64,000 bases of DNA, from the NCBI GenBank assembly GCA_041742825.1, contig JBGTNX010000045.1, positions 14,465 through 78,464 on the forward strand, read 5' to 3'. Under the pieces are notes generated by a model, which ran no database searches, was not told the origin of the DNA, and saw only the letters and a program-made list of their open reading frames with translations. The DNA comes from Acidimicrobiia bacterium. GTDB lineage: Bacteria > Actinomycetota > Acidimicrobiia > Spongiisociales > ZC4RG35. A program made the position numbers and the translations under genes. How positions within the stretch are numbered: position 1 is the stretch's first letter; each line of letters begins with the position of its first letter. Positions 47,625-64,000 of the stretch are shown in pieces.

Positions 47625-47696
47625 CTCTCCCTCCGCTTGTCACTCTCCCTCCGCTTGCCACTCTCCCCCCGCTTGCCACTCTCCATCCGCTCGCGG
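47625..47696. repeat. 4 tandem 18-bp direct repeats (CTCTCCCTCCGCTTGCCA-like)
   Basis: Units at 47625, 47643, 47661 and 47679. They abut the structured repeat. Confidence 0.85.
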
Positions 47697-50074: not shown

Positions 50075-50775
50075 ACCGTCGACAACTCCGCAGCTGCCGA
50101 CTCGTCGGCCCAGATGACGACATTTGGTGCAGTTCGCAGGTACGTGGCGGGGATCTCCGGGCTGATCTGATCCTCCAGCGTGCGGCGGAGAATCCTTGCT
50201 TTCCCGGGACCCGTCACCAGGAGCCAGATCTCATCCGACTGGAGGAGGCGGCCAAGTCCGACTGTAATCCCCCAGTCGGTGATGGTCCGCGCCCCATACC
50301 CGGACATGCCGGAGATCGTCTCAGGAGCGAGGGTGACCCTGCGGGTAGGGCATCCGGGATCACAACCTGGCTCGTTCAGTCCGAGATGCCCGTTGCCTCC
50401 CAACCCGAGAATTGTGAGACCGAGACCTCCGGCCGCGATCGCCATCTCGTAGCGGTCGCACTCTGCACCGATATCGCCTGCCGGGTTCAGCGAGTCGAAT
50501 ACCGCAGGCGGCGTGTCGAGCCTGTCGATGAGGTCGCGGCGTAGTGTGGCGTCACAACGGGCCGGGTCATCAGGGGGCAGGCCGAACTCATCGAGGAGAA
50601 AGATGACGGAACGGGAGAAGTCGAACGGCGCTATCTTCTGATACACAGGCGATGGAGTCTTCCCGGTGGGCAGGCACATTCGCAGTTCCGGATTACTGGC
50701 GAGACGAGCGGCCCACTCCGAGGCCACGGCCCCGGCCCACCCGGCGTCGGGGAGCACCCGCAGGTCTGGCGTCAC
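50071..50775 (-). CDS. Glucosamine-6-phosphate deaminase/6-phosphogluconolactonase family (NagB-like)
   Basis: Fold motifs (LPTGKTP, FLLDEF). Confidence 0.8.
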
Positions 50776-55631: not shown

Positions 55632-56063
55632 ATGAAAAATAGAAGTGTGCTGATTCTGGCACTCACCGGGTTGTTGTTCCTCGCAGCGTGCGGCGAAACG
55701 GACCTGACGGCGACAACAGCGGATGCCGGGACTGTTACGACCGGGGACCCGGCTGGTGACGACGGGTCAGATGAAATTGCTTCAACTGTGGCCGAGGTCC
55801 AGGCCGAGATCAACGAGCTCACCACAGAAGTTCAGAACTCCGCCGCCGCCGCTGAGCTGGAGGCGGCGTGGAACACACTGCAGGCCGACCTCGTGGCAGC
55901 TGTCGCAGCCATTGGCGACGACGGCACCATCGACGGTTCAGCTGTGCAGGAGAAGGTCGATGCCTTCCAGACCAAACTCGATTCCCTCGGGGATGACGTG
56001 GAACCCGCTCTGATGGATGCATGGGAGACCCTACGCCACCGGCTGCAAGACTTGATGTCGTAG
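55632..56063 (+). CDS. Small helical lipoprotein
   Basis: Lipobox LAAC. Ala/Glu/Asp-rich. Confidence 0.6.
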   Translation: MKNRSVLILALTGLLFLAACGETDLTATTADAGTVTTGDPAGDDGSDEIASTVAEVQAEINELTTEVQNSAAAAELEAAWNTLQADLVAAVAAIGDDGTIDGSAVQEKVDAFQTKLDSLGDDVEPALMDAWETLRHRLQDLMS

Positions 56064-56078
56064 ACCAGCTCTGTAAGC

Positions 56079-56108
56079 CGCAAGGGGACCGTGATCACGG
56101 TCCCCTTG
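56079..56108. terminator. 30-bp perfect palindrome GCAAGGGGACCGTGA|TCACGGTCCCCTTGC
   Basis: Lies 16 bp after the lipoprotein stop. No U-tract. Confidence 0.6.
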
Positions 56109-56249
56109 CGCCAAGATTCGAGCGGCAAAGAGCTATGGAGCGGTCAACCAGAGTTAAATGGTCGTATTGAGGCTTTACATCACCCGGTGGACTGGGCCCG
56201 GCTCTTGCAATCTTCGGTATTCATTGGGTCTGCATAGGTCTGCCGGGCT

Positions 56250-57068
56250 GTGGGGTCGCTCTTGAAGTTTTATCGGATCACCCGTCTCGGTCGACCCTTC
56301 GACCTGAGTAAAACGTCCAATCGGATCAGTCTCATCGGCCCTGCCGTGATCGGTGTCGGGTCCGTGGGTTGGGATTTCGCCACTGGCAATACGGCTGACT
56401 ACCTCGGTGCCCTTTGGGCTTCGATAACTGCATTCCTCGCTTGGGCGATCGCGCGAGAACTCGATCCTGATCGCCCGCACACCGCAACCTTCGCGATGGC
56501 CCTGGCTGCGCTTGCCGCCCTCACCGGGTTCCGGGCGGTGCCTCTGATGGTTTCGGCGGCCGCACTGATCGGGATGCGCGTGCTCGTCGGTTCGGTTGGT
56601 GGCGATCTAAAGCCTCTCGACCTAGTTGTGGTTGTCGGTCTTGCGGTGTTCGCAGGGACCCGCATCGAGGGATGGGTTGTTGTCCTACTTCTCGTCCTCG
56701 GAGTCCTCGACTCGAGGCCCCCCGGCTACGGGTTTGCCCTCCCGGCAATGGTGGTGGGTGCAGGGCTCGGCGCCTACCTCGCAGGCGTGGGGTTGCCAGG
56801 CGGATCGATCTCCGACGAGGTCTATCTCTGGGCACTTGTCACAATCGCCGCGATTCCCCTGGCAGTGCGTCTGACCAAGATTCGCTCTCGAACCGACATC
56901 TTCGATCACCTGATTCGGTGGCCGAACGTGAGGGCGGCCCGGGTGATGGCGGGATTCGTTGTCATCGGGGGCCTCCTCGCCTCAACAGCAAACGACGTGG
57001 TGTTACTCGTCCCGGTCCTGGCCGCATTGGTGGCGACGGCGCTGGCTCGCACTTTCAGACCGGTGTGA
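56250..57068 (+). CDS. Polytopic membrane protein (hypothetical)
   Basis: Six to eight TM helices. No motif recognised. Confidence 0.55.
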   Translation: MGSLLKFYRITRLGRPFDLSKTSNRISLIGPAVIGVGSVGWDFATGNTADYLGALWASITAFLAWAIARELDPDRPHTATFAMALAALAALTGFRAVPLMVSAAALIGMRVLVGSVGGDLKPLDLVVVVGLAVFAGTRIEGWVVVLLLVLGVLDSRPPGYGFALPAMVVGAGLGAYLAGVGLPGGSISDEVYLWALVTIAAIPLAVRLTKIRSRTDIFDHLIRWPNVRAARVMAGFVVIGGLLASTANDVVLLVPVLAALVATALARTFRPV

Positions 57069-57090
57069 GGAGCTGGGGCCGACCGCCCTG

Positions 57091-57426
57091 TTACTCAGTC
57101 AAACCAGCAGGGAGGCGGAACGAGCCGTCCGGCTCTGGAGGGAAAGGCACAACTGCCTTCACAGCCGGCACGGGGATCGGTCCGTAGACGTGTGGGTATC
57201 GTTCTCCGATCTCATAACAGTCCTCTTCGACCACTTCGAGAGCTGCGGAGTCGAAACAGACGAGGACCAGGTCGGTTCGTCCCCTGTCGAGAGAAGTCGC
57301 TGTGCGGGCCACCTGGTGCCGGTAGGAGAAGTGGATGAAACCCTCTTCGGCAAGGCTCGGCGCAACATAGGTGTCAGTCGTCGCCGCCCATATCTCGGCA
57401 GGACACCAGTGATAGATAGTTGCCAT
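57091..57426 (-). CDS. DUF952-family protein
   Basis: MATIYHWCPAEIW...GFIHFS resembles the DUF952 consensus. Confidence 0.7.
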   Translation of the reverse strand: MATIYHWCPAEIWAATTDTYVAPSLAEEGFIHFSYRHQVARTATSLDRGRTDLVLVCFDSAALEVVEEDCYEIGERYPHVYGPIPVPAVKAVVPFPPEPDGSFRLPAGLTE

Positions 57427-57512
57427 CAGCAGATTGTGGCCTCTGGTAGGTGGTTTGGAGCTCCAGTTTCGACCGAAAGGGTGGCGGAAGGAAATCGCGT
57501 AGTCTGTGTCAC

Positions 57513-57911
57513 ATGTTCAACGCAAAGTCCAAGGCAAGAATGGAACAAGAGCCCGTGATCTGGATGACCACCGTCAGGACGGATGGCCAGCCGCAAACCT
57601 CGGTCGTCTGGTTCCTGCTGGAAGACGACGAGATCCTCGTTTACTCGAAGGACGGCACGATCCGAAACCGGAGCGTGGTGTCGAACCCAAAGGTGGCGCT
57701 GAACCTCAACGGTGACCAAGGAGGCGGTTCCGTGGTGACGATGGAAGGAACCGCCCGCATCGATTACGACGCGCCGGCGCCGAAAGACAATGCCCCGTAT
57801 CTGGAGAAGTATTTGAGCCGTATTGAAGGGAACGGCTGGACGCCCGAAATCTTCGGCCGCGACTATCCCGTCCCGATACGGATCAAGATTGAAACGGTGC
57901 GAGCCTGGTAG
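57513..57911 (+). CDS. Pyridoxamine 5'-phosphate oxidase-family (F420-dependent PPOX-class) protein
   Basis: Split-barrel fold (about 132 aa) with PVIWMTTVRTDGQPQTSVVWF. ATG at 57513. Confidence 0.75.
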   Translation: MFNAKSKARMEQEPVIWMTTVRTDGQPQTSVVWFLLEDDEILVYSKDGTIRNRSVVSNPKVALNLNGDQGGGSVVTMEGTARIDYDAPAPKDNAPYLEKYLSRIEGNGWTPEIFGRDYPVPIRIKIETVRAW

Positions 57912-57928
57912 CTTTTTTTCCCACGCGT

Positions 57929-58062
57929 CTCTCCCTTCGCTCGCGGAGGGAGGGTGGGCGTTCTCACCAACCGCACTCGAGCTCCCAGCTCGGGACCTCT
58001 CCTTGTTCCTCCGCCCTCTTTGGTCGGGCGCAAGGACCAACCTCGGCGCAAGCGGGAGGACA
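57929..58062 (+). ncRNA. Structured repeat element copy B
   Basis: See copy A. Hairpin CGAGCT-CCC-AGCTCG preserves the stem through a base change. Confidence 0.4.
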
Positions 58063-58179
58063 GCCGAAAGAGGAGGAGCACCCCGACCGGATGGGGCTTT
58101 CCTTCACCTTGTCGGTACCGCTAGATCCCTGGCGGGCATATGGTTGGAATGAATCAGTTCGATTGAACGAGGAGCAACC

Positions 58180-58416
58180 ATGCCCGATGTAGAAATTCAG
58201 TACTGCGTGCCCTGCGGGCACCTCGATCGGGCCATAGACACCCAACGACACCTGCTCACCGAGTTCGGCCAGGGGCTCGACGGCGTGCGCCTGAAGACCG
58301 GCGAGGGTGGCGTGTTCACAGTGGCAGTCGATGGCGAGAAGATTTTCGATAAGAAAGAAACCCCATACGACCTCGAGGCGATCACCGCCGGCGTTGCCTC
58401 CCGCATCCAGAACTAG
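58180..58416 (+). CDS. SelT/SelW/Rdx-family redox protein
   Basis: N-terminal CxxC (YCVPCG). About 78 aa. GAGGAG RBS. Confidence 0.7.
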   Translation: MPDVEIQYCVPCGHLDRAIDTQRHLLTEFGQGLDGVRLKTGEGGVFTVAVDGEKIFDKKETPYDLEAITAGVASRIQN

Positions 58417-58928
58417 GCGGACCGGGGCGTCGGTCTCTAGCTCAGTCGTTTCGGTATGTCGCCAGGCTCGCTCCCTACCTGATCGAGTTCCCATGGGACG
58501 GCGAGTACCTGTTCGGCCTCGAGATCATAATCGACGGCCTCGAATCCCGACTCGGCTAAAGACGCTGCCCGAGTGCGGGCACCTTCATCCTGGCCTAAGG
58601 AGAATCGATATCTTGGTTGCAGGCTGCGCGTTGGTGAGAACCAGGAGAGAGTGTTCCATCGCAGAGTTACGGTGCTGCTGGTGGCATGGGGGGGTGGCGC
58701 TCGCGGCGTGTGGGGCGCGGATCCGAGTGACCCGGCCGGGTTAACCACTTCGACGGTGGCCCCGGCCGGGGCTCTGGATGACGTCGGGGGCGACGGCGAG
58801 GACGATCAAGGCTCCGCGGTCGATCCCGCCGCTCTGGACACCGAGTTGATTAATGGAGCTCTCGATCCGCGCGTATCAGGGCGGGGATGGAGCGCTCTTG
58901 TGTGTTGAGGGGTAACGGAGACTTGAAG

Positions 58929-59150
58929 AAGGAGAGAACCATGCTGCCTTACGACCAGATAAAGGCAATGAGTGAACAAAGAATCGACGGGTACCGGTCC
59001 GAAGCCGAGTATCACCGGCATGTCGTTCGGCCAAAGTCGCACGATCGGGCACGCAGCCGGCTTCAGTCAGGTCTGAAGCGCTCCGGTTTGAGAAGGATCG
59101 CCCAGATCCTGTCCGGGAGACCGACCCGCCCGCTCCAGCCTGCGATTTAG
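58929..59150 (+). CDS. Small basic hypothetical protein (73 aa)
   Basis: ATG after a GAAGGAGAG RBS. Lower-GC 5' end. No homology recognised. Confidence 0.3.
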   Translation, partial: KERTMLPYDQIKAMSEQRIDGYRSEAEYHRHVVRPKSHDRARSRLQSGLKRSGLRRIAQILSGRPTRPLQPAI

Positions 59151-59162
59151 GTCCCTGTCTGG

Positions 59163-60332
59163 TTAAACGACGAGGCCAGGGGTATCCGCGTATCGGACGT
59201 TGCGGTCTGCCCACCAAAGGAGGCTGCCGTGGGTTTCCATGGGCCGGTGGCTGGCATAGGAGGCGGTCGCGACTGCGGTAGCGAAAGACGAACCGCTCCA
59301 TTTCACCCACTCGGCCCGGGTTCGACCGCTCGGACTCACCACATCGGAGCCGGGGGCGACGTCGGTGATCCAGGCGCGATCCGGGGCGGAGACTGTCCCC
59401 GAACGGGAAGACGTTCGGTCCCATACCACTTGTTCCCCACCCTCTTTGGCCGCAGCTACCGACCTCACGAATTCGAACGCACCCGGGTAGACCTCGAGCG
59501 TGTCTGGGGTGTTTCCTCCTGCGGCGAATATCTCGGCCCGCGGGAACGAGTTCCGCCACAGGTCCAGGGCGACCGCCAGAGTCGCAAAACCCGGGTCGTG
59601 GTCGTCACAGCTCCCACCCAGGGACAAGTTGAGCGCCACGACATCGCACAGGTTCTTTGCCTGGAGTCGGTTGACCAACCGGATCATTGCCTCGAGCACA
59701 TGGAGTTCTGTCGAAGGGTCGGCCGCATCGAGGTGGGATTTATCCAACTTCGGTTCCAGGTCTTTGATACTCCAACGGCGGGCCCTGGCCATGGAGATGG
59801 TGTGTTCGGGGGCGATGCGACGGATGAGGCCGGCAACAAATGTTCCATGGCTGGCCGCATCCTTTCCACTGAGAGTCTCGACGTCGGCGGCGTCGTATTC
59901 GAGGCCCGAGTCGAGCCAGGCAGGGAGGTTCGCGGTGACTCCGGTGTCGATCGCCGCAACGATCCGGCCCGGGCTCGCAGCCGCGATTACAGGTTCAGTC
60001 CTCACCCGGGTCGGCTTGGGATCGGTCCCGGTCATGGCTTGAATGTGATTGAGACTCCCCAGGGCGTGGATTGGCGAGCCCGACACCCCGGCCTCCCGAA
60101 GCCGCCCCGCCCACTCGTGCGGGTCACCCTGGACCCTGTACACGCCGACCAGCTCGTGGATCTGGCTCAGTACCTCGCGATCGGACTCTTTTCCCATCAA
60201 GCGGACCAACTGGGCATCCCCGAAGCGCTCGGCTTGAAGAATTCCTTGTGCCTGATCCGTCTGGTCGCCGCGAATAGCGATCACATTCTTCATGAAATGA
60301 CAAGCGCGGTTTCCCTTTTGTCTGGAGGTCAT
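59163..60332 (-). CDS. S8-family serine peptidase (subtilase), no signal peptide
   Basis: Asp (IAAIDTGV), His (HGTFVAGLI) and Ser (GSSFATAVAT) catalytic motifs are in D-H-S order. The N-terminus is not hydrophobic. Confidence 0.85.
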   Translation of the reverse strand: MTSRQKGNRACHFMKNVIAIRGDQTDQAQGILQAERFGDAQLVRLMGKESDREVLSQIHELVGVYRVQGDPHEWAGRLREAGVSGSPIHALGSLNHIQAMTGTDPKPTRVRTEPVIAAASPGRIVAAIDTGVTANLPAWLDSGLEYDAADVETLSGKDAASHGTFVAGLIRRIAPEHTISMARARRWSIKDLEPKLDKSHLDAADPSTELHVLEAMIRLVNRLQAKNLCDVVALNLSLGGSCDDHDPGFATLAVALDLWRNSFPRAEIFAAGGNTPDTLEVYPGAFEFVRSVAAAKEGGEQVVWDRTSSRSGTVSAPDRAWITDVAPGSDVVSPSGRTRAEWVKWSGSSFATAVATASYASHRPMETHGSLLWWADRNVRYADTPGLVV

Positions 60333-60410
60333 TGGCCGTCCTTACGTAGGATTCGATGAGGGTGTCCGTCCCCCTGCCGTGGGAGTATACGAATCGATGA
60401 AGGTGCCTGC

Positions 60411-62981
60411 ATGACTCCGACCGGCCCCGAAGCCGTTGCGCGCAGTCTGATCGACAGGGCCAACGCCGAGCCGGCAGAGGTTCTGGGAGAGGGTCGACTT
60501 CTTCTCGACGTCCTGGACGATCCGGACCAGCGAGCATCGGTGCTCCGGGCGATGGCACTGGCAGCCCGGAGCGTGTCCACGCTCGACGAGTCGGTTCAAT
60601 ACGCGCGAGCCGCGGCCGGGGCGGCTGAAGATCTCACCATACGGCTCGAGGCACTGGGGACGATGGCGGGGTCGATGGCTTCGGCCGGTGAGACCGCCGC
60701 CGCTCTGGCTGTCCTCGATGACGCCGCCGCTCAGGCATCGGGCCTGATCGCGGCACAACTCGATTTCCAGCGCGGCTTCGTCCTCACCATGACCGGAGAT
60801 TACCGACCTGCACTTGCGGCGTTTGAGCGGTCTCTGCCCCTATTCCGGCACCACGAACGATCGGATTTTGTGGCCATGGCCCTGCACAACCAGGGATTCA
60901 TCTACACCCAAACCGGTCGACTGGGCGAAGCCGAGGCCGCCCTGACCGAGGCACGGGATCTCGAGGAGGCAGCGGGGCGGCTCCAGGCGGTGTCGGGTGT
61001 CGACCACAACCTGGGGCTCCTTGCATCGTTCCGGGGTGATGTCCCCGAAGCGTTGCGGCGCCTGACGATGAGCGACGAGTCATATATGCTCCAGACCGGT
61101 AACGCGGTCCCTCAGCATGTAAGCCGATGCGAGATTCTCCTTTCTGTCGGTCTCTTCCACGAAGCCTTGGACCTGGCGAAACGGATTGCAGCGGGAGCGC
61201 GGAGCAAGGGACGTGCGGAAGACGAAGCCGATGCCCTGCTCGTGGCAGCCCGCGCCGCCCTCCTCTGCAACGATCCGGAACAGTCGATCAAATTAGCGAC
61301 GGCGGCGAGAACCAGATTTGAGAAGCAGCAGAGGGTGATCTGGGCTGACCAGGCCAACCTGTCAGTCGTCGAAGCGACCTACGCCAACCAGGGCGCTTCT
61401 GCAGACCTCAGAGACCTCACCCGTCAGTTGGCTGCCCAACTCGGAAAGCGTGGGTTTGCTATCGCCGAAACAAGGGCCCGGATCCTCGCTGGCCGTATCG
61501 CCATCGAGCTCGGTGACTTCAAATCGGCGGATGCGGACTTGACAGCTGTTGGCAAACCTCGTTCCGGGCCGGTCGAATTGAGAATCCAGCGCTGGCAGGC
61601 GGAGGCGCTGCTCCGTCTGGCCCGGGGCAACGCAAGAGGGGCAGATGCTGCGGCGCGGGCGGGCCTCGACCTTCTCGACGACTACCAGGCAGGGCTCGGT
61701 GCAAGCGACCTCAGGTTCGGGATTGAACGTCAGGGAGCAGAGCTTGGGGCGATAGGGCTTCGGCTTGCAGTCGAATCCGGCAGGCCTCGGCGCGTGTTCA
61801 GCTGGATGGAGCGGACCCGGGCCCGCGCTCTCCGATATCCGCCTGTGGTGCCCGGCGACACCGAGCGCGAGCAGGGTGTCCTTGCCGAACTCCGTCAGGT
61901 GAGTGCAGAACTGCGTGATCCGGAGAACCGTGACGATCGGGATTTGATGCGGAGGCAGCGCCGGCTTCAGGAACAACTACGCAGTTCCAATCGCGTCCGC
62001 CGTTCCGCGACCACGTCGGATTCAGACTTTTCAGTCGGGCTCTTGCTCGCCTCCCTGGGGGATCGAACTCTGGTTGAACTCGGTGCCGTGGAGGGCAGGC
62101 TCGTTGCGGTCGTGGCGAAAGACGGGAGGTTCTCCTTTCGCGAGATCGGCGATGCCCCGGCCATCGAACAGGAGTTGGGTCGGGTCCGTTCCACCCTCCG
62201 CCGTACCGCCCGAATGCGTCGGGATTCAAGGGTCGTCGAGGAAAGCGTGGAGCGGTTCGATCGAATGGTGCTAGCCGGCTTGGGTTTACGTGCCGAACGG
62301 GTAGTGCTGGTTCCTCCGGGTCCGCTGATGGCAGCTCCCTGGGCGGTGCTCCCATCGTTCGGAGGGGCCGAAGTGACTGTGGCGCCATCGGCGGAGATGT
62401 GGTGGCGGGCGTTTTCGAGAAGGTCGTCTGGTGATGGTGTGGTGCTGGCGGCCGGTCCCGATCTCGAGAACGCAACCCATGAAGTCGCAAGGTTGAGATC
62501 GCTGTACAAGGAGGCGACGGTCCTGGGACCATCGGACACAGCCGACCGGTTCGGCGCCGCGGTTCGCGGGGCGGCTGTGGCCCATGCCGCCTGTCATGCA
62601 ACTTTCGAGGTTGATAACCCGATGTTCTCCTCGCTCCGACTCGGTGACGGCGACTTCAACGTCTATGACCTGGAGCGTCTCCACGATCCGCCAGAACTGA
62701 TGGTGCTTTCGGCATGTGACTCGGGCTACACCGACACCAGGGCGGGAGACGAATTGACGGGGCTGACCTCGGCGCTGCTGAGCATGGGCTCGAAGTCGGT
62801 GGTCGCCAGCGTCGGCCTGGTTCCCGACTCGGAGGCAACTTCTGACCTGATGGTCCGCTTCCACCAAGGCCTCCGTTCCGGCCTTTCACCTGCCCGCGCC
62901 CTCTCCACCGCCCAACACGAATCCCTGGACACCCCCGACGGCTACATCGCGGCAGCCTCGTTCCTCTGCATCGGCGGCTAA
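60411..62981 (+). CDS. TPR-repeat + CHAT-domain (caspase-like) protein
   Basis: About 500 aa of helical TPR-like repeats, then a CHAT domain with catalytic His (AHAACHATF) and Cys (MVLSACDSG). Confidence 0.85.
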   Translation: MTPTGPEAVARSLIDRANAEPAEVLGEGRLLLDVLDDPDQRASVLRAMALAARSVSTLDESVQYARAAAGAAEDLTIRLEALGTMAGSMASAGETAAALAVLDDAAAQASGLIAAQLDFQRGFVLTMTGDYRPALAAFERSLPLFRHHERSDFVAMALHNQGFIYTQTGRLGEAEAALTEARDLEEAAGRLQAVSGVDHNLGLLASFRGDVPEALRRLTMSDESYMLQTGNAVPQHVSRCEILLSVGLFHEALDLAKRIAAGARSKGRAEDEADALLVAARAALLCNDPEQSIKLATAARTRFEKQQRVIWADQANLSVVEATYANQGASADLRDLTRQLAAQLGKRGFAIAETRARILAGRIAIELGDFKSADADLTAVGKPRSGPVELRIQRWQAEALLRLARGNARGADAAARAGLDLLDDYQAGLGASDLRFGIERQGAELGAIGLRLAVESGRPRRVFSWMERTRARALRYPPVVPGDTEREQGVLAELRQVSAELRDPENRDDRDLMRRQRRLQEQLRSSNRVRRSATTSDSDFSVGLLLASLGDRTLVELGAVEGRLVAVVAKDGRFSFREIGDAPAIEQELGRVRSTLRRTARMRRDSRVVEESVERFDRMVLAGLGLRAERVVLVPPGPLMAAPWAVLPSFGGAEVTVAPSAEMWWRAFSRRSSGDGVVLAAGPDLENATHEVARLRSLYKEATVLGPSDTADRFGAAVRGAAVAHAACHATFEVDNPMFSSLRLGDGDFNVYDLERLHDPPELMVLSACDSGYTDTRAGDELTGLTSALLSMGSKSVVASVGLVPDSEATSDLMVRFHQGLRSGLSPARALSTAQHESLDTPDGYIAAASFLCIGG

Positions 62982-63017
62982 ACCATTCCTAAGGCTGTAG
63001 AGCTCATATTTGATTCG

Positions 63018-63629
63018 GTGGCCACACAGTTCGGCTTCTCCACCGCTGGTGGGCACTGCGGTCGGTACGATCCACTAATCGAAGAGATATCGCATGGTGA
63101 ATTGTTGTTGCGCGCTGCCGCCGGGGAGCGTGAGGCGTGGGACGCGCTCGTGGAGAGGTTCGGGCAGATGGTCTGGTCGGTCGCCCGCAGTTATCGCCTC
63201 GACGATGCCGCCGCGTCTGATGTCGCCCAGACCGTCTGGCTGCGTCTGATCGAGAACATCGACCGCATCAACGACCCCGAACGTCTCCCGGGATGGTTGG
63301 CCGTCACCTGTCGGCGCGAGGCACTGCGGGTGCTCAAACGCAGCGAAAGGGACATCCCAAGTGACTTCGAGTACGACGTCGAAGACCCGTCGCCGTCACT
63401 CGAGTCGATGCTGATCGAAGACGAGGAGAGCCGCGAGGTGGTGGCCGCGTTCCGGGAAATCGGTGACGAGTGTCAGCAGCTGCTCCGGCTGCTGACAGTG
63501 GAACCTGCGCTTACCTACGAGGAAATCTCTGAAGCCACTGGCCGCCCCGTCGGAAGTTTGGGGCCGACCAGGGGCCGCTGCGTCGAAAGACTGCGAGCCG
63601 CGATGTCGCGTATCAGGAGGGAGTCTTGA
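63018..63629 (+). CDS. ECF (sigma-70 family) RNA polymerase sigma factor
   Basis: Region 2 (DVAQTVWLRLIENIDRINDPERLPGWL) and region 4 HTH (TYEEISEATGRPVGSLGPTRGRCVERL). Confidence 0.85.
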   Translation: MATQFGFSTAGGHCGRYDPLIEEISHGELLLRAAAGEREAWDALVERFGQMVWSVARSYRLDDAAASDVAQTVWLRLIENIDRINDPERLPGWLAVTCRREALRVLKRSERDIPSDFEYDVEDPSPSLESMLIEDEESREVVAAFREIGDECQQLLRLLTVEPALTYEEISEATGRPVGSLGPTRGRCVERLRAAMSRIRRES

Positions 63630-63659
63630 CGCTCTATCAAGTGAAGGAGGTGGATTCAG

Positions 63660-64000
63660 ATGACTGACTCGGCAAAGGACAACGAATTTCTCGACATACT
63701 CCGCAACGGGTTACAGCAGAGCGATCCTGTCCCTACGATGGTCTCGGAATTCGCCTTCGCCCTGTTCACCTGGCGCAATGTCGAGGCAGAGCTTGCCGAG
63801 CTCGCCTTCGATTCCGTGGACGAGGAAACACCCGCCGGTGTGCGTTCGACCGCTACTTCCCGAATGATTTCTTTTGAAGTCGGAAACTGGACTATCGACC
63901 TCGAACACAACCCGGCCACCGGAATCCTCATGGGTTCGTTGTCGCCGGTCTCACCCTTTTCTGTAGAGCTCCACAATCGTGGGGCTCATTTCGAGATGGA
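63660..64000 (+). CDS. Partial ORF downstream of ECF sigma (candidate anti-sigma/partner), runs off window
   Basis: ATG at 63660 lies 8 nt after a GAAGGAGG RBS. At least 113 codons remain open (MTDSAKDNEFLDILRNG...). Confidence 0.5.
   Translation, partial: MTDSAKDNEFLDILRNGLQQSDPVPTMVSEFAFALFTWRNVEAELAELAFDSVDEETPAGVRSTATSRMISFEVGNWTIDLEHNPATGILMGSLSPVSPFSVELHNRGAHFEM

What the first reader, a model, noticed from the sequence alone, without database searches (positions are those of the whole stretch)
59163..64000. Cytoplasmic S8 subtilase divergent from TPR-CHAT caspase-like protease, ECF sigma factor and an unknown downstream partner
What the sequence shows directly:
- The S8 peptidase has an intact D-H-S triad and no secretion signal.
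- It is transcribed divergently from an 856-aa protein with N-terminal TPR-like repeats and a C-terminal CHAT domain. The CHAT domain has a His/Cys dyad (AHAACHA..., LSACDSG). The two starts are about 80 bp apart.
- An ECF sigma gene follows 36 bp after the CHAT gene. A further ORF with a strong RBS runs off the window.

Established knowledge: CHAT domains are clan-CD caspase-like proteases. In type III-E CRISPR systems the TPR-CHAT protein Csx29 (Craspase) cleaves Csx30, which controls the ECF sigma RpoE.

Inference: this is a CRISPR-independent protease-to-sigma signalling or abortive-infection/stress module. The CHAT protease, and perhaps the subtilase, would process a regulator, possibly the downstream ORF, to free the sigma factor. 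Two different proteases plus a dedicated sigma factor in one locus is not an annotated system type.
Basis: partly seen in the sequence, partly recalled or inferred. Interest (0 to 1): 0.78.

Follow-up and report, generated by a model that had tools for sequence, protein, structure and literature searches.

The report
ECF54 sigma factor protease module
This is an ordinary member of a four-gene actinobacterial signalling module that has been described from genomes since 2015: an ECF54-group sigma factor, a small partner protein, a subtilase and a TPR-CHAT caspase-like protease, whose mechanism nobody has yet tested experimentally.

Summary
The genes are a cytoplasmic S8 peptidase (59163-60332, -), a TPR-CHAT protein (60411-62981, +), an ECF sigma factor (63018-63629, +) and a fourth ORF from 63660.

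The claim that this is not a described system type is wrong. The locus matches the published description of sigma group ECF54 (Huang 2015; Casas-Pastor 2021):
- It is restricted to Actinobacteria.
- A carboxypeptidase-regulatory-like protein lies at +1, with a subtilase and a TPR-CHAT protein nearby.
- No canonical anti-sigma factor is present.
- The predicted promoter is GTATCAG/CTCC.

In 64 related loci with enough flanking DNA, 52 carry all four genes, in many different gene orders. The published promoter motif occurs only twice in the 64-kb window (0.02 expected). Both copies flank the module, one before ORF4 and one before a small basic ORF.

Across loci the motif often precedes the sigma, S8 and ORF4 genes. 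It precedes CHAT no more often than in wrong-spacing controls.

My working model is inferred, not shown. CHAT is the upstream sensor protease. ORF4, translationally coupled to sigma, is the candidate soluble anti-sigma. S8 and the small proteins are outputs. I found no support for a role in phage defence.

Verdict: a new member of a known, uncharacterised kind.

The parts
58873..58898 (+). ECF54-type promoter site A (CGTATCAGG-N12-CGCTCT, that is GTATCAG-N15-CTCT)
   Evidence: It is one of only two matches to GTATCAG-N15-CTCY in the 64-kb window, where 0.02 are expected. The same motif sits upstream of the orthologous small ORF in L001, L006 and L070.
58941..59150 (+). Small ORF A: 69 aa, pI 11.4, C-terminus ...RPLQPAI; convergent with S8; candidate sigma target
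   Evidence: It has a strong RBS (GAAGGAGAG) and begins about 42 nt after site A. Orthologues occur at the same position in L001, L006 and L070 with 26-41% identity and a conserved PA[I/Y] C-terminus. It has no Pfam family.
59163..60332 (-). Cytoplasmic S8 (subtilase) peptidase, 389 aa: an N-terminal region of about 120 aa with no family, then the catalytic domain (Asp129, His162, Asn274, Ser349)
   Evidence: Pfam S8 E 7e-11. It is only weakly mycosin-like, 45.8 bits against a cut-off of 278.75. The triad and oxyanion Asn are conserved in 69 of 69 orthologues. There is no signal peptide or TM segment, and no solved relative by sequence.
60333..60410 (.). 78-bp divergent intergenic region between S8 and CHAT
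   Evidence: Read directly. It has no ECF54 motif with up to 2 mismatches and no sigma-70 consensus match. The divergent S8<- ->CHAT pair is the most conserved adjacency after sigma->ORF4.
60411..62981 (+). TPR-CHAT caspase-like protease, 856 aa: a TPR-like helical repeat region to about residue 530, then the CHAT domain (residues 625-842, nt 62283-62936), with His729 (62595-62597) and Cys769 (62715-62717)
   Evidence: Pfam CHAT E 3e-31. The dyad is invariant in 64 homologues. The AlphaFold2 model has pLDDT 90.3 and pTM 0.89. The best Foldseek PDB matches are separase, Csx29 and DdvA. There are at least 587 relatives among GTDB species genomes, and the 80 loci kept are all Actinomycetota.
63018..63629 (+). 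ECF sigma factor of group ECF54 type, 203 aa from GTG 63018 (the true start may lie a few codons downstream)
   Evidence: TIGR02937 scores 75 bits. The sigma proteins linked to the module score 123-341 bits on a family HMM, against 59 bits or less for the other sigma-like ORFs detected in the same loci. Close homologues are 86-94% identical.
63610..63635 (+). ECF54-type promoter site B (CGTATCAGG-N12-CGCTCT), inside the last codons of the sigma gene and 24 nt upstream of the ORF4 start
   Evidence: It is the second of the two window matches. Exact-core sites lie upstream of ORF4 in 7 loci, among them L006, L018, L027, L028 and L084.
63660..64000 (+). ORF4 (113 of 150 codons lie in the window): a soluble acidic protein with a conserved N-terminal helical region (DPVP...DAELAEL.FDS), an Arg-containing linker (R62, R68) and a C-terminal Ig-like / CarboxypepD_reg-like beta-sandwich; candidate anti-sigma factor
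   Evidence: The full-length protein is P0121. It is always immediately downstream of sigma. The start overlaps the sigma stop by 4 nt in 36 of 74 loci (37 counting one 1-nt overlap), and 72 of 74 lie within -30 to +40 nt. Of 97 family members, 58 give weak CarboxypepD_reg hits. In the AlphaFold2 model the beta-sandwich is confident and the N-terminus is low-confidence. The family has 1,404 representatives at E<=1e-10; the 150 listed are mostly about 145-170 aa and none is long enough to be a domain fusion.

Best explanation
The locus is the Acidimicrobiia version of the conserved four-gene module built around ECF54-group sigma factors. The four genes are sigma, a +1 partner of about 150 aa (ORF4), a cytoplasmic subtilase and a TPR-CHAT caspase-like protease.

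Shown:
- The genes travel together across Actinomycetota, and the catalytic sites are kept.
- Sigma and ORF4 are translationally coupled.
- The sigma-type promoter (GTATCAG-N15/16-CTCY) lies in front of ORF4 and two small basic ORFs in this genome.
- In other genomes it lies in front of the sigma, S8 and LuxR-type genes. It precedes CHAT no more often than in controls.

Inferred working model:
- ORF4 holds the sigma factor inactive through its conserved N-terminal helices, acting as a soluble, non-canonical anti-sigma.
- The TPR-CHAT protein is not under sigma control. It senses a cytoplasmic protein or peptide cue through its TPR arm and cuts ORF4, plausibly at the invariant Arg62 or Arg68 in the disordered linker.
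- The freed sigma then transcribes ORF4 (negative feedback), in many genomes itself and the S8 protease, and local small proteins or regulators.

The whole pathway is cytoplasmic and independent of CRISPR. I am about 90% confident of the identity as an ECF54 module and about 40% confident of the cleavage model.
For: Identity as an ECF54 module:
- The published description is: Actinobacteria only; CarboxypepD_reg-like protein always at +1 (0.61 per ECF); subtilase (0.68); CHAT (0.71); no anti-sigma; promoter GTATCAG/CTCC (review).
- All of these were met here.

The module is real:
- 52 of 64 loci are complete, in many gene orders, and sigma->ORF4 is always kept as a unit.

Sigma-ORF4 coupling:
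- The ORF4 start overlaps the sigma stop by 4 nt in 36 of 74 loci (37 counting one 1-nt overlap).

The promoter is real:
- There are 35 sites at spacer 15 and 11 at spacer 16, against 0-3 at any other spacer from 8 to 25.
- With one mismatch or fewer, the motif lies upstream of sigma in 23 of 75 loci, S8 in 21 of 69, ORF4 in 9 of 76 and CHAT in 1 of 85, which is control level.
- The window has 2 sites against 0.02 expected. A third lies just past the window end (L086).

Active enzymes:
- The CHAT dyad and the S8 triad are invariant.

Architecture:
- The CHAT model matches separase, Csx29 and DdvA.

ORF4:
- R62 and R68 are at least 90% conserved in 76 and in 97 sequences. R62 lies in the low-confidence linker of the model, and R68 lies just after it, at the start of the first strand of the beta-sandwich.

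Precedents:
- Csx29 cleaves Csx30 to free RpoE (PMC10028731).
- The SAVED-Lon protease CalpL works in a tripartite system with the anti-sigma CalpT and the sigma CalpS (bioRxiv 10.1101/2024.05.08.593097).
- The DdvA TPR-CHAT anti-sigma has been characterised (PMC11506125).
Against: - No experiment exists for any ECF54 member. The literature search found none.
- ORF4 has no detectable similarity to any anti-sigma domain, by sequence or by fold. Its N-terminal region is predicted only with low confidence.
- No sigma-ORF4, CHAT-ORF4 or CHAT-S8 interaction could be modelled with these tools.
- In this window, S8 itself has no ECF54 promoter, so the 'S8 is an output' part rests on other genomes.
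- About 11% of complete loci lack S8, so S8 is not essential to the core.
- The ECF Hub HMM for ECF54 could not be run, so group assignment rests on context and promoter.
Confidence: 0.5

Rival explanations
1. The proteases are products of the sigma factor's regulon, not its regulators. On this view sigma activity is set some other way, for example transcriptionally, by ORF4 sensing a ligand with its beta-sandwich, or by partner switching. S8 and CHAT would then carry out the response, such as proteome remodelling or processing of a substrate.
For: - ECF54-type promoters precede S8 in at least 21 of 69 loci.
- Casas-Pastor et al. explicitly warn that neighbours may be either regulators or targets.
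- S8 is dispensable in about 11% of loci.
Against: - CHAT is preceded by the motif in only 1 of 85 loci, which is control level, so CHAT at least is not a regulon member.
- CHAT is the component by which all the loci were found, and it is retained even where S8 is lost.
Confidence: 0.22
2. A protease cascade in the opposite order. S8 is the enzyme that destroys ORF4 or processes sigma. TPR-CHAT activates S8 by removing its roughly 120-aa N-terminal region (a prodomain-like zymogen lock), or acts only as a TPR scaffold.
For: - S8 and CHAT are almost always a divergent neighbouring pair.
- S8 has an N-terminal extension of about 120 aa with no family match. Many subtilases carry an inhibitory propeptide (established knowledge).
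Against: - Sigma-ORF4-CHAT loci exist without S8.
- A sigma-dependent S8 would make S8 both cause and consequence. That is possible as positive feedback but less parsimonious.
Confidence: 0.15
3. An anti-phage, abortive-infection-type module. Infection would activate the caspase-like protease, which frees the sigma factor or kills the cell.
For: - TPR-CHAT proteases act in defence in Craspase and DdvA (PMC10028731, PMC11506125).
- There are weak PADLOC similarities of S8 to IetS (E 1e-7, catalytic core only) and of CHAT to BovA (E 5e-4).
- The 308-member Streptomyces cluster of the CHAT protein contains no model strains among the members listed.
Against: - There is no full-length PADLOC match.
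- There are no relatives on viral contigs, phages or true plasmids.
- There is no CRISPR array or gRAMP-sized ORF.
- The flanks are metabolic and transporter genes and differ between genomes.
- Similarity falls off with taxonomic distance: other Acidimicrobiia are 44-80% identical, other classes about 35%.
Confidence: 0.08

Closest known systems
[quoted passage not shown] 2015, J Bacteriol 197:2517; Casas-Pastor et al. 2021, NAR 49:986 with supplement; reviewed in PMC8999054)
   Same: - It is restricted to Actinobacteria.
- The sigma factor has no canonical anti-sigma.
- A CarboxypepD_reg-like protein lies at +1, with a subtilase and a TPR-CHAT protein nearby.
- The predicted promoter has GTATCAG at -35 and CTCC at -10.
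- All of these were found here.
   Different: - The gene order here (S8<- ->CHAT, sigma, ORF4) puts CHAT at -1 and the subtilase at -2. The published typical positions are subtilase -1 or +2 and CHAT -2 or +3. This order occurs in 10 of the 80 loci.
- The -10 element is CTCT rather than CTCC. CTCT is the commoner form in my set, 26 of the 35 spacer-15 sites.
- This Acidimicrobiia subclade adds two small basic sigma-dependent ORFs that the published description does not mention.
Type III-E CRISPR Craspase: Cas7-11/gRAMP + Csx29 (TPR-CHAT) + Csx30 + Csx31 + RpoE
   Same: - A cytoplasmic TPR-CHAT protease is encoded next to an ECF-type sigma factor and a small partner protein.
- The CHAT model matches Csx29 structures at E of about 1e-12 to 1e-15.
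- The logic 'protease cuts the sigma-binding protein' is the model proposed here.
   Different: - There is no CRISPR array and no gRAMP-sized gene.
- Identity to Csx29 is 12-14%.
- ORF4 shows no Csx30-like fold among the listed best PDB matches.
- An S8 protease is present instead of Csx31.
- The activating signal cannot be target RNA bound by Cas7-11.
[quoted passage not shown]
   Same: - A TPR-CHAT module with an intact His-Cys dyad is dedicated to an ECF sigma factor.
- DdvA structures are among the fold matches (8rot, 8rw5).
   Different: - In DdvA the zinc-binding anti-sigma domain, a TM helix and the TPR-CHAT domain are fused in one protein, and the CHAT domain is periplasmic.
- Here CHAT is a separate soluble protein with no anti-sigma domain or TM segment, and the candidate anti-sigma is a separate 150-aa protein.
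CalpL-CalpT-CalpS (type III CRISPR SAVED-Lon protease, anti-sigma, ECF-like sigma)
   Same: [quoted passage not shown] The proposed logic of anti-sigma cleavage freeing the sigma is the same as my model.
   Different: - The protease family differs (Lon against CHAT and S8).
- CalpL is activated by cyclic oligoadenylate, and no SAVED or CARF domain is present here.
Separase-securin
   Same: - Separase gives the best overall fold matches.
- It is a TPR-like helical arm plus a CHAT/caspase domain, cleaves after Arg, and is held in check by a small, largely unstructured pseudo-substrate protein.
   Different: - Separase is eukaryotic, much larger, and has no link to transcription factors.
- The idea that the small basic sigma-induced ORFs act like securin is pure speculation.

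Membership tests
ECF54 sigma-factor group | Group 4 (ECF) sigma factor with sigma2 and sigma4 regions only | tested here: met
   TIGR02937 sigma70-ECF scores 75 bits against a cut-off of 42.9, covering residues 39-195. Pfam Sigma70_r2 gives E 4e-12.
ECF54 sigma-factor group | Restricted to Actinobacteria | tested here: met
   The named homologues and all 80 related genome loci kept are Actinomycetota: Acidimicrobiia, Actinomycetes, Thermoleophilia and Nitriliruptoria.
ECF54 sigma-factor group | Carboxypeptidase-regulatory-like domain protein always at position +1 | tested here: met
   ORF4 is immediately downstream of sigma in 72 of 74 loci. Of 97 family members, 58 give CarboxypepD_reg hits, against the published 0.61 per ECF. 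The window protein itself scores below threshold, but its model has the beta-sandwich.
ECF54 sigma-factor group | Subtilase and TPR-CHAT protein in the conserved neighbourhood | tested here: met
   Both are present in the window. All four genes are present in 52 of 64 complete related loci.
ECF54 sigma-factor group | Predicted target promoter with GTATCAG at -35 and CTCC at -10 | tested here: met
   The window has two GTATCAG-N15-CTCT sites against 0.02 expected. In the loci, 46 sites lie at spacer 15 or 16, against 0-3 at each other spacing. The -10 element is CTCT more often than CTCC.
ECF54 sigma-factor group | No canonical anti-sigma factor (ASD/ZAS) encoded alongside | tested here: met
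   None of the four proteins, and none of 97 ORF4 homologues, has an anti-sigma Pfam or NCBIfam domain.
ECF54 sigma-factor group | Score above the trusted threshold of the ECF Hub ECF54 HMM (128.7 bits in the supplement table) | not testable with these tools
   The ECF Hub HMMs are not available here. The reference member SFT86700.1 (Geodermatophilus amargosae) could not be fetched. As a substitute, sigma proteins linked to the module score 123-341 bits on a family HMM, against 59 bits or less for the other sigma-like ORFs detected in the same loci.
Type III-E CRISPR Craspase (Csx29-Csx30-Csx31-RpoE) | Adjacent Cas7-11/gRAMP effector and CRISPR array | tested here: not met
   There is no CRISPR-like array in the 64 kb. 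The largest ORF is the 856-aa CHAT protein itself.
Type III-E CRISPR Craspase (Csx29-Csx30-Csx31-RpoE) | TPR-CHAT protease of the Csx29 fold with a His-Cys dyad | tested here: met
   Foldseek matches to 8eey_B, 7y8t_B, 8eex_B and 7xsr_C at E 6e-15 to 3e-12, with 12-14% identity. The dyad is invariant.
Type III-E CRISPR Craspase (Csx29-Csx30-Csx31-RpoE) | Csx30-like substrate that binds the sigma factor | tested here: not met
DdvA-type TPR-CHAT anti-sigma factor | N-terminal zinc-binding anti-sigma domain and a TM helix fused to a periplasmic TPR-CHAT domain | tested here: not met
   There is no anti-sigma domain. The maximum 19-residue hydropathy is 1.34, so there is no TM segment or signal peptide.
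Mycosin (type VII secretion S8 protease) | Score above the TIGR03921 cut-off | tested here: not met
   The score is 45.8 bits against a cut-off of 278.75.
Known anti-phage defence systems (PADLOC-DB 2.0) | Full-length match of the components to a defence-system model | tested here: not met
   There are only partial weak hits: S8 catalytic core to IetS at E 1e-7, and CHAT to BovA at E 5e-4. Sigma, ORF4 and small ORF A have none.

The most novel reading that the evidence does not exclude
The ORF4 family is a new, structurally unprecedented class of soluble anti-sigma factor. It has at least 1,400 sequence clusters of about 150 aa, and no function has been assigned to it in the ECF54 literature I read. 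Its conserved Arg-containing linker would be cut by the TPR-CHAT protease, which is not under sigma control. That would make ECF54 modules a widespread, chromosomal, CRISPR-independent counterpart of Craspase and CalpL signalling. In this Acidimicrobiia clade, the sigma-induced small basic proteins with conserved ...PA[F/I/V/Y/L] C-termini would feed back on the TPR-CHAT or S8 protease as securin-like pseudo-substrates or TPR ligands.
Probability: 0.25. Interest if true: 0.7.

Novelty: new member of a known kind. Interest (0 to 1): 0.33.

Why it matters
The association itself is not new. It defines ECF54, one of 16 ECF groups with no canonical regulator in Casas-Pastor et al., and reviewers already list it under 'regulated by proteolysis'.

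What still matters is that no member has been studied experimentally. The discoveries of Craspase, CalpL and DdvA have since shown that a protease cutting an anti-sigma to free an ECF sigma is a real signalling logic. ECF54 modules would be the free-standing, non-CRISPR version, present in at least 587 actinobacterial species genomes.

This analysis adds testable detail:
- A validated promoter motif with fixed spacing.
- Evidence that CHAT lies outside the regulon while S8, sigma and ORF4 often lie inside it.
- A specific candidate anti-sigma, with candidate cleavage residues.
- Two small sigma-dependent proteins.

For the window itself the finding is ordinary.

Tried and rejected
- Extending the window with the look-up of encoding contigs on the CHAT protein or P0001 found nothing. 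ORF4 gave only a 1.3-kb contig (L086). That was still enough to show the ORF4 end, a third promoter and small ORF B.
- Sequence searches of ORF4 gave no specific family and no anti-sigma similarity. These were Pfam and NCBIfam and PDB sequences.
- The S8 protein has no solved relative by phmmer, and its N-terminal 122 aa match no Pfam family.
- I looked for the ECF54 motif in the S8-CHAT intergenic region and upstream of sigma in the window. There is none with up to 2 mismatches.
- The one exact GTATCAG...CTCC match in the first scan (50614-50644, -) has a 20-nt spacer. I reject it as chance, because real sites have spacers of 15 or 16.
- The sigma-70 promoter and terminator scan of the locus was uninformative. 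Rfam gave no hits.
- Huang et al. 2015 (PMC4518836) is not held, so I cite it only through the supplement and review that quote it.
- The main text of Casas-Pastor says ECF54 lies near a 4Fe-4S protein. Its own supplement assigns that feature to ECF58 and gives the protease context for ECF54, and I followed the supplement.
- Searching for sigma homologues did not reach the named ECF54 reference protein. The best 120 hits listed have only generic or Acidimicrobiia names.
- Chance adjacency of unrelated genes is rejected by the co-occurrence data.

Full report
**1. Observation**

- S8 peptidase: a 389-aa protein on the minus strand (59163-60332). It matches Pfam Peptidase_S8 at E 7e-11.
- TPR-CHAT: an 856-aa protein (60411-62981) whose start is 78 bp from the S8 start. 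It matches CHAT at E 3e-31 and TPR_12 at E 6e-11.
- ECF sigma: a 203-aa protein (63018-63629) starting 36 bp after the CHAT stop. It scores 75 bits on TIGR02937.
- Fourth ORF: it starts at ATG 63660, 9 nt downstream of a GGAGG ribosome-binding sequence, and runs off the window.
- Catalytic residues: S8 has Asp129, His162, Asn274 and Ser349. CHAT has His729 and Cys769.
- Localisation: none of the proteins has a signal peptide or a transmembrane segment.
- Host: the CHAT protein is 100% identical to a database protein from a 93-kb NCBI contig. Its closest named relatives are from Acidimicrobiia MAGs.

**2. A conserved module, not chance adjacency**

The called-gene neighbourhoods of four CHAT homologues all contain the same four gene types in different orders. 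They span 58% identity (Acidimicrobiia), 38% (a metagenome contig) and about 35% (Streptomyces tuirus, Micromonospora).

A scan of one genome per GTDB species found at least 587 relatives of the CHAT protein. The 80 best loci are all Actinomycetota.

I built HMMs of S8, sigma and ORF4 from five seed loci and searched six-frame ORFs of all loci. The results for the 64 loci with adequate flanks were:

| Gene content | Loci |
|---|---|
| All four genes | 52 |
| Sigma + ORF4 + CHAT, no S8 | 7 |
| Other partial combinations | 5 |

- The genes occur in many different orders across the 80 loci.
- The sigma->ORF4 pair is always kept as a unit.
- S8 and CHAT are usually a divergent pair.
- The S8 triad and oxyanion Asn are invariant in 69 of 69 orthologues.
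- The CHAT dyad is invariant in 64 homologues.

**3. The module is already described**

A 2022 review states that proteolytic control has been proposed for group ECF54. The reason it gives is the conserved presence of carboxypeptidase, subtilase and CHAT domain proteins in the genetic context (PMC8999054).

The supplement of Casas-Pastor et al., quoting Huang et al. 2015, gives the details:
- ECF54 is 100% actinobacterial.
- A carboxypeptidase-regulatory-like domain protein is always at +1 (0.61 copies per ECF).
- A subtilase lies at +2 or -1 (0.68 copies per ECF).
- CHAT lies at +3 or -2 (0.71 copies per ECF), with TPR repeats.
- There is no putative anti-sigma factor.
- The predicted promoter has GTATCAG at -35 and CTCC at -10.

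I tested these features one by one.

- ORF4 is the +1 protein. Its full-length form is 150 aa (P0121).
- The AlphaFold2 model has a confident C-terminal beta-sandwich.
- Of 97 diverse family members, 58 give weak CarboxypepD_reg hits. That is essentially the published 0.61.
- The promoter motif occurs exactly twice in the 64-kb window as GTATCAG-N15-CTCT, where 0.02 are expected. Both copies border the module.
- In 1.26 Mb of related loci the motif occurs 35 times with a 15-nt spacer and 11 times with a 16-nt spacer. At every other spacing from 8 to 25 it occurs 0-3 times. This is a clean internal control showing a real bipartite promoter.

The one defining test I could not run is the ECF Hub HMM score. 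As a substitute, sigma proteins linked to the module score 123-341 bits on a family HMM. The other sigma-like ORFs detected in the same loci score 59 bits or less.

I conclude with about 90% confidence that this is an ECF54 module. The statement that it 'is not an annotated system type' is therefore incorrect.

**4. What the anatomy adds**

(a) Position in the pathway.
- Allowing one mismatch, the ECF54 motif lies upstream of sigma in 23 of 75 loci, S8 in 21 of 69 and ORF4 in 9 of 76.
- It lies upstream of CHAT in only 1 of 85 loci, the same as in wrong-spacing controls.
- CHAT is thus outside the regulon. S8, sigma and ORF4 are often inside it.
- In Streptomyces-type loci, a LuxR/AAA_16 regulator next to CHAT also carries the motif.
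- In some S8-less loci, a GerE-family gene divergent from CHAT takes the place of S8. In L020 it carries the motif.

(b) Sigma-ORF4 coupling.
- The ORF4 start overlaps the sigma stop codon by 4 nt in 36 of 74 loci (37 counting one 1-nt overlap).
- It lies within -30 to +40 nt in 72 of 74 loci.
- This is the arrangement typical of sigma/anti-sigma pairs (established knowledge).

(c) ORF4 anatomy.
- The conserved N-terminal segment reads DPVP...DAELAEL.FDS. It is followed by two Arg residues (R62, R68) that are at least 90% conserved, then the beta-sandwich.
- R62 lies in the low-confidence linker of the model. R68 lies just after it, at the start of the first strand of the beta-sandwich.
- The family is large, with 1,404 representatives at E<=1e-10. 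The 150 listed are mostly about 145-170 aa, and none is long enough to be a domain fusion.
- It has no similarity to known anti-sigma domains or to Csx30.

(d) The CHAT protein.
- The model is confident (pLDDT 90.3, pTM 0.89).
- Its best PDB matches are separase, Csx29 and DdvA.

(e) In this genome.
- The two window promoters drive ORF4 (site 63610-63635) and a 69-aa basic ORF convergent with S8 (site 58873-58898; ORF 58941-59150).
- A short contig from the same genome shows a third site just after ORF4. It drives a 61-aa basic ORF.
- Both small ORF families are conserved only in the related Acidimicrobiia loci. Both end in a conserved ...PA[F/I/V/Y/L].

**5. Mechanism**

The steps that are shown: conservation, intact active sites, cytoplasmic location, coupling of sigma and ORF4, promoter positions.

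The steps that are inferred:
- ORF4 is a soluble, non-canonical anti-sigma.
- TPR-CHAT, expressed independently of sigma, is the sensor protease. It inactivates ORF4, plausibly at R62 or R68. Separase cleaves after Arg (PMC11506125), but Csx29 does not, so this is weak.
- The freed sigma induces ORF4 (negative feedback). In many genomes it also induces itself and S8, and it induces local small proteins or LuxR regulators.

I give this model about 40%. The rivals are:

| Rival | Confidence |
|---|---|
| Proteases are outputs only | 0.22 |
| Cascade in which S8 is the effector on ORF4 and CHAT activates S8 | 0.15 |
| Anti-phage defence | 0.08 |

The defence reading lacks support:
- No full-length PADLOC match.
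- No copies in viral contigs, phage records or true plasmids.
- No CRISPR array or gRAMP-sized ORF.
- Metabolic and ABC-transporter flanks that differ between genomes.

**6. Comparison and novelty**

- The locus is a member of the ECF54 module. All testable defining features are met.
- It works like Craspase and CalpL-CalpT-CalpS in logic, but it is not a member of either.
- It is not a DdvA-type fused anti-sigma, because it has no anti-sigma domain and no TM segment.
- No experimental study of any ECF54 member turned up in five literature searches.

Verdict: a new member of a known, bioinformatically described and experimentally uncharacterised kind. The window locus itself is ordinary. The residual interest lies in the untested mechanism and in the added details: the promoter map, the candidate anti-sigma and the small sigma-dependent proteins.

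Noticed in passing
window 58873-59150 (+); L086 961-1219 (same genome, just beyond the window end): Two small, very basic ORFs (69 aa with pI 11.4; 61 aa with pI 11.2) each lie directly downstream of an exact ECF54-type promoter. One flanks S8 and the other follows ORF4. Both families end in a conserved ...PA[F/I/V/Y/L] and start M-L/I/T-P/Y-Y/M. Orthologues occur only in related Acidimicrobiia loci (L001, L006, L070, L084). They match no Pfam family and are not mentioned in the ECF54 descriptions I read.
   Followed up: partly
L020 5986-6657 (-), L058 6102-6752 (-), L035 2237-2887 (-); L055 9454-11247 (-), L069, L071, L076, L002 11076-12803 (-): In some module variants without S8, a LuxR/GerE-family gene of about 217 aa sits divergent from CHAT in the position S8 usually holds; in L020 it carries an ECF54-type promoter. 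In Streptomyces-type and Thermomonospora loci, a large AAA_16+GerE regulator downstream of CHAT carries an ECF54-type promoter. This suggests a transcriptional cascade.
   Followed up: partly
Casas-Pastor et al. 2021, main text against supplement: The main text says ECF54 is encoded near a 4Fe-4S protein. The paper's own supplementary table assigns the DUF3470/4Fe-4S protein to ECF58 and the subtilase/CarboxypepD_reg/CHAT context to ECF54. This looks like a mix-up in the main text.
   Followed up: partly
window 57094 (-), 46362 (-), 34372 (-), 35585 (+), 8820 (+), 3837 (+): There are one-mismatch matches to the ECF54 promoter motif elsewhere in the window. The count is comparable to what the wrong-spacing controls gave in the related loci, so most are probably chance. 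The 57094 (-) site lies in the unannotated 55.6-58.9 kb stretch next to the module.
   Followed up: no
window 55632-58744: About 3 kb between the ABC transporter genes and the module contains only ORFs with no significant Pfam family match (55632-56063 has only sub-threshold hits; 56250-57068, 56959-57558, 57426-58040 and 57964-58494 have none). The gene content there is unresolved.
   Followed up: no
window 47625-47691: There is an 18-bp tandem repeat (CTCTCCCTCCGCTTGCCA, 3.7 copies, 91% matches). It is unrelated to the finding.
   Followed up: no
MT838002.1 4018-4662 (phage collection hit H2): A 7.5-kb unannotated 'Bacteriophage sp.' record from human faeces encodes a stand-alone CHAT-domain match (35% identity over residues 627-834 of the query). 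It is not the full module.
   Followed up: no
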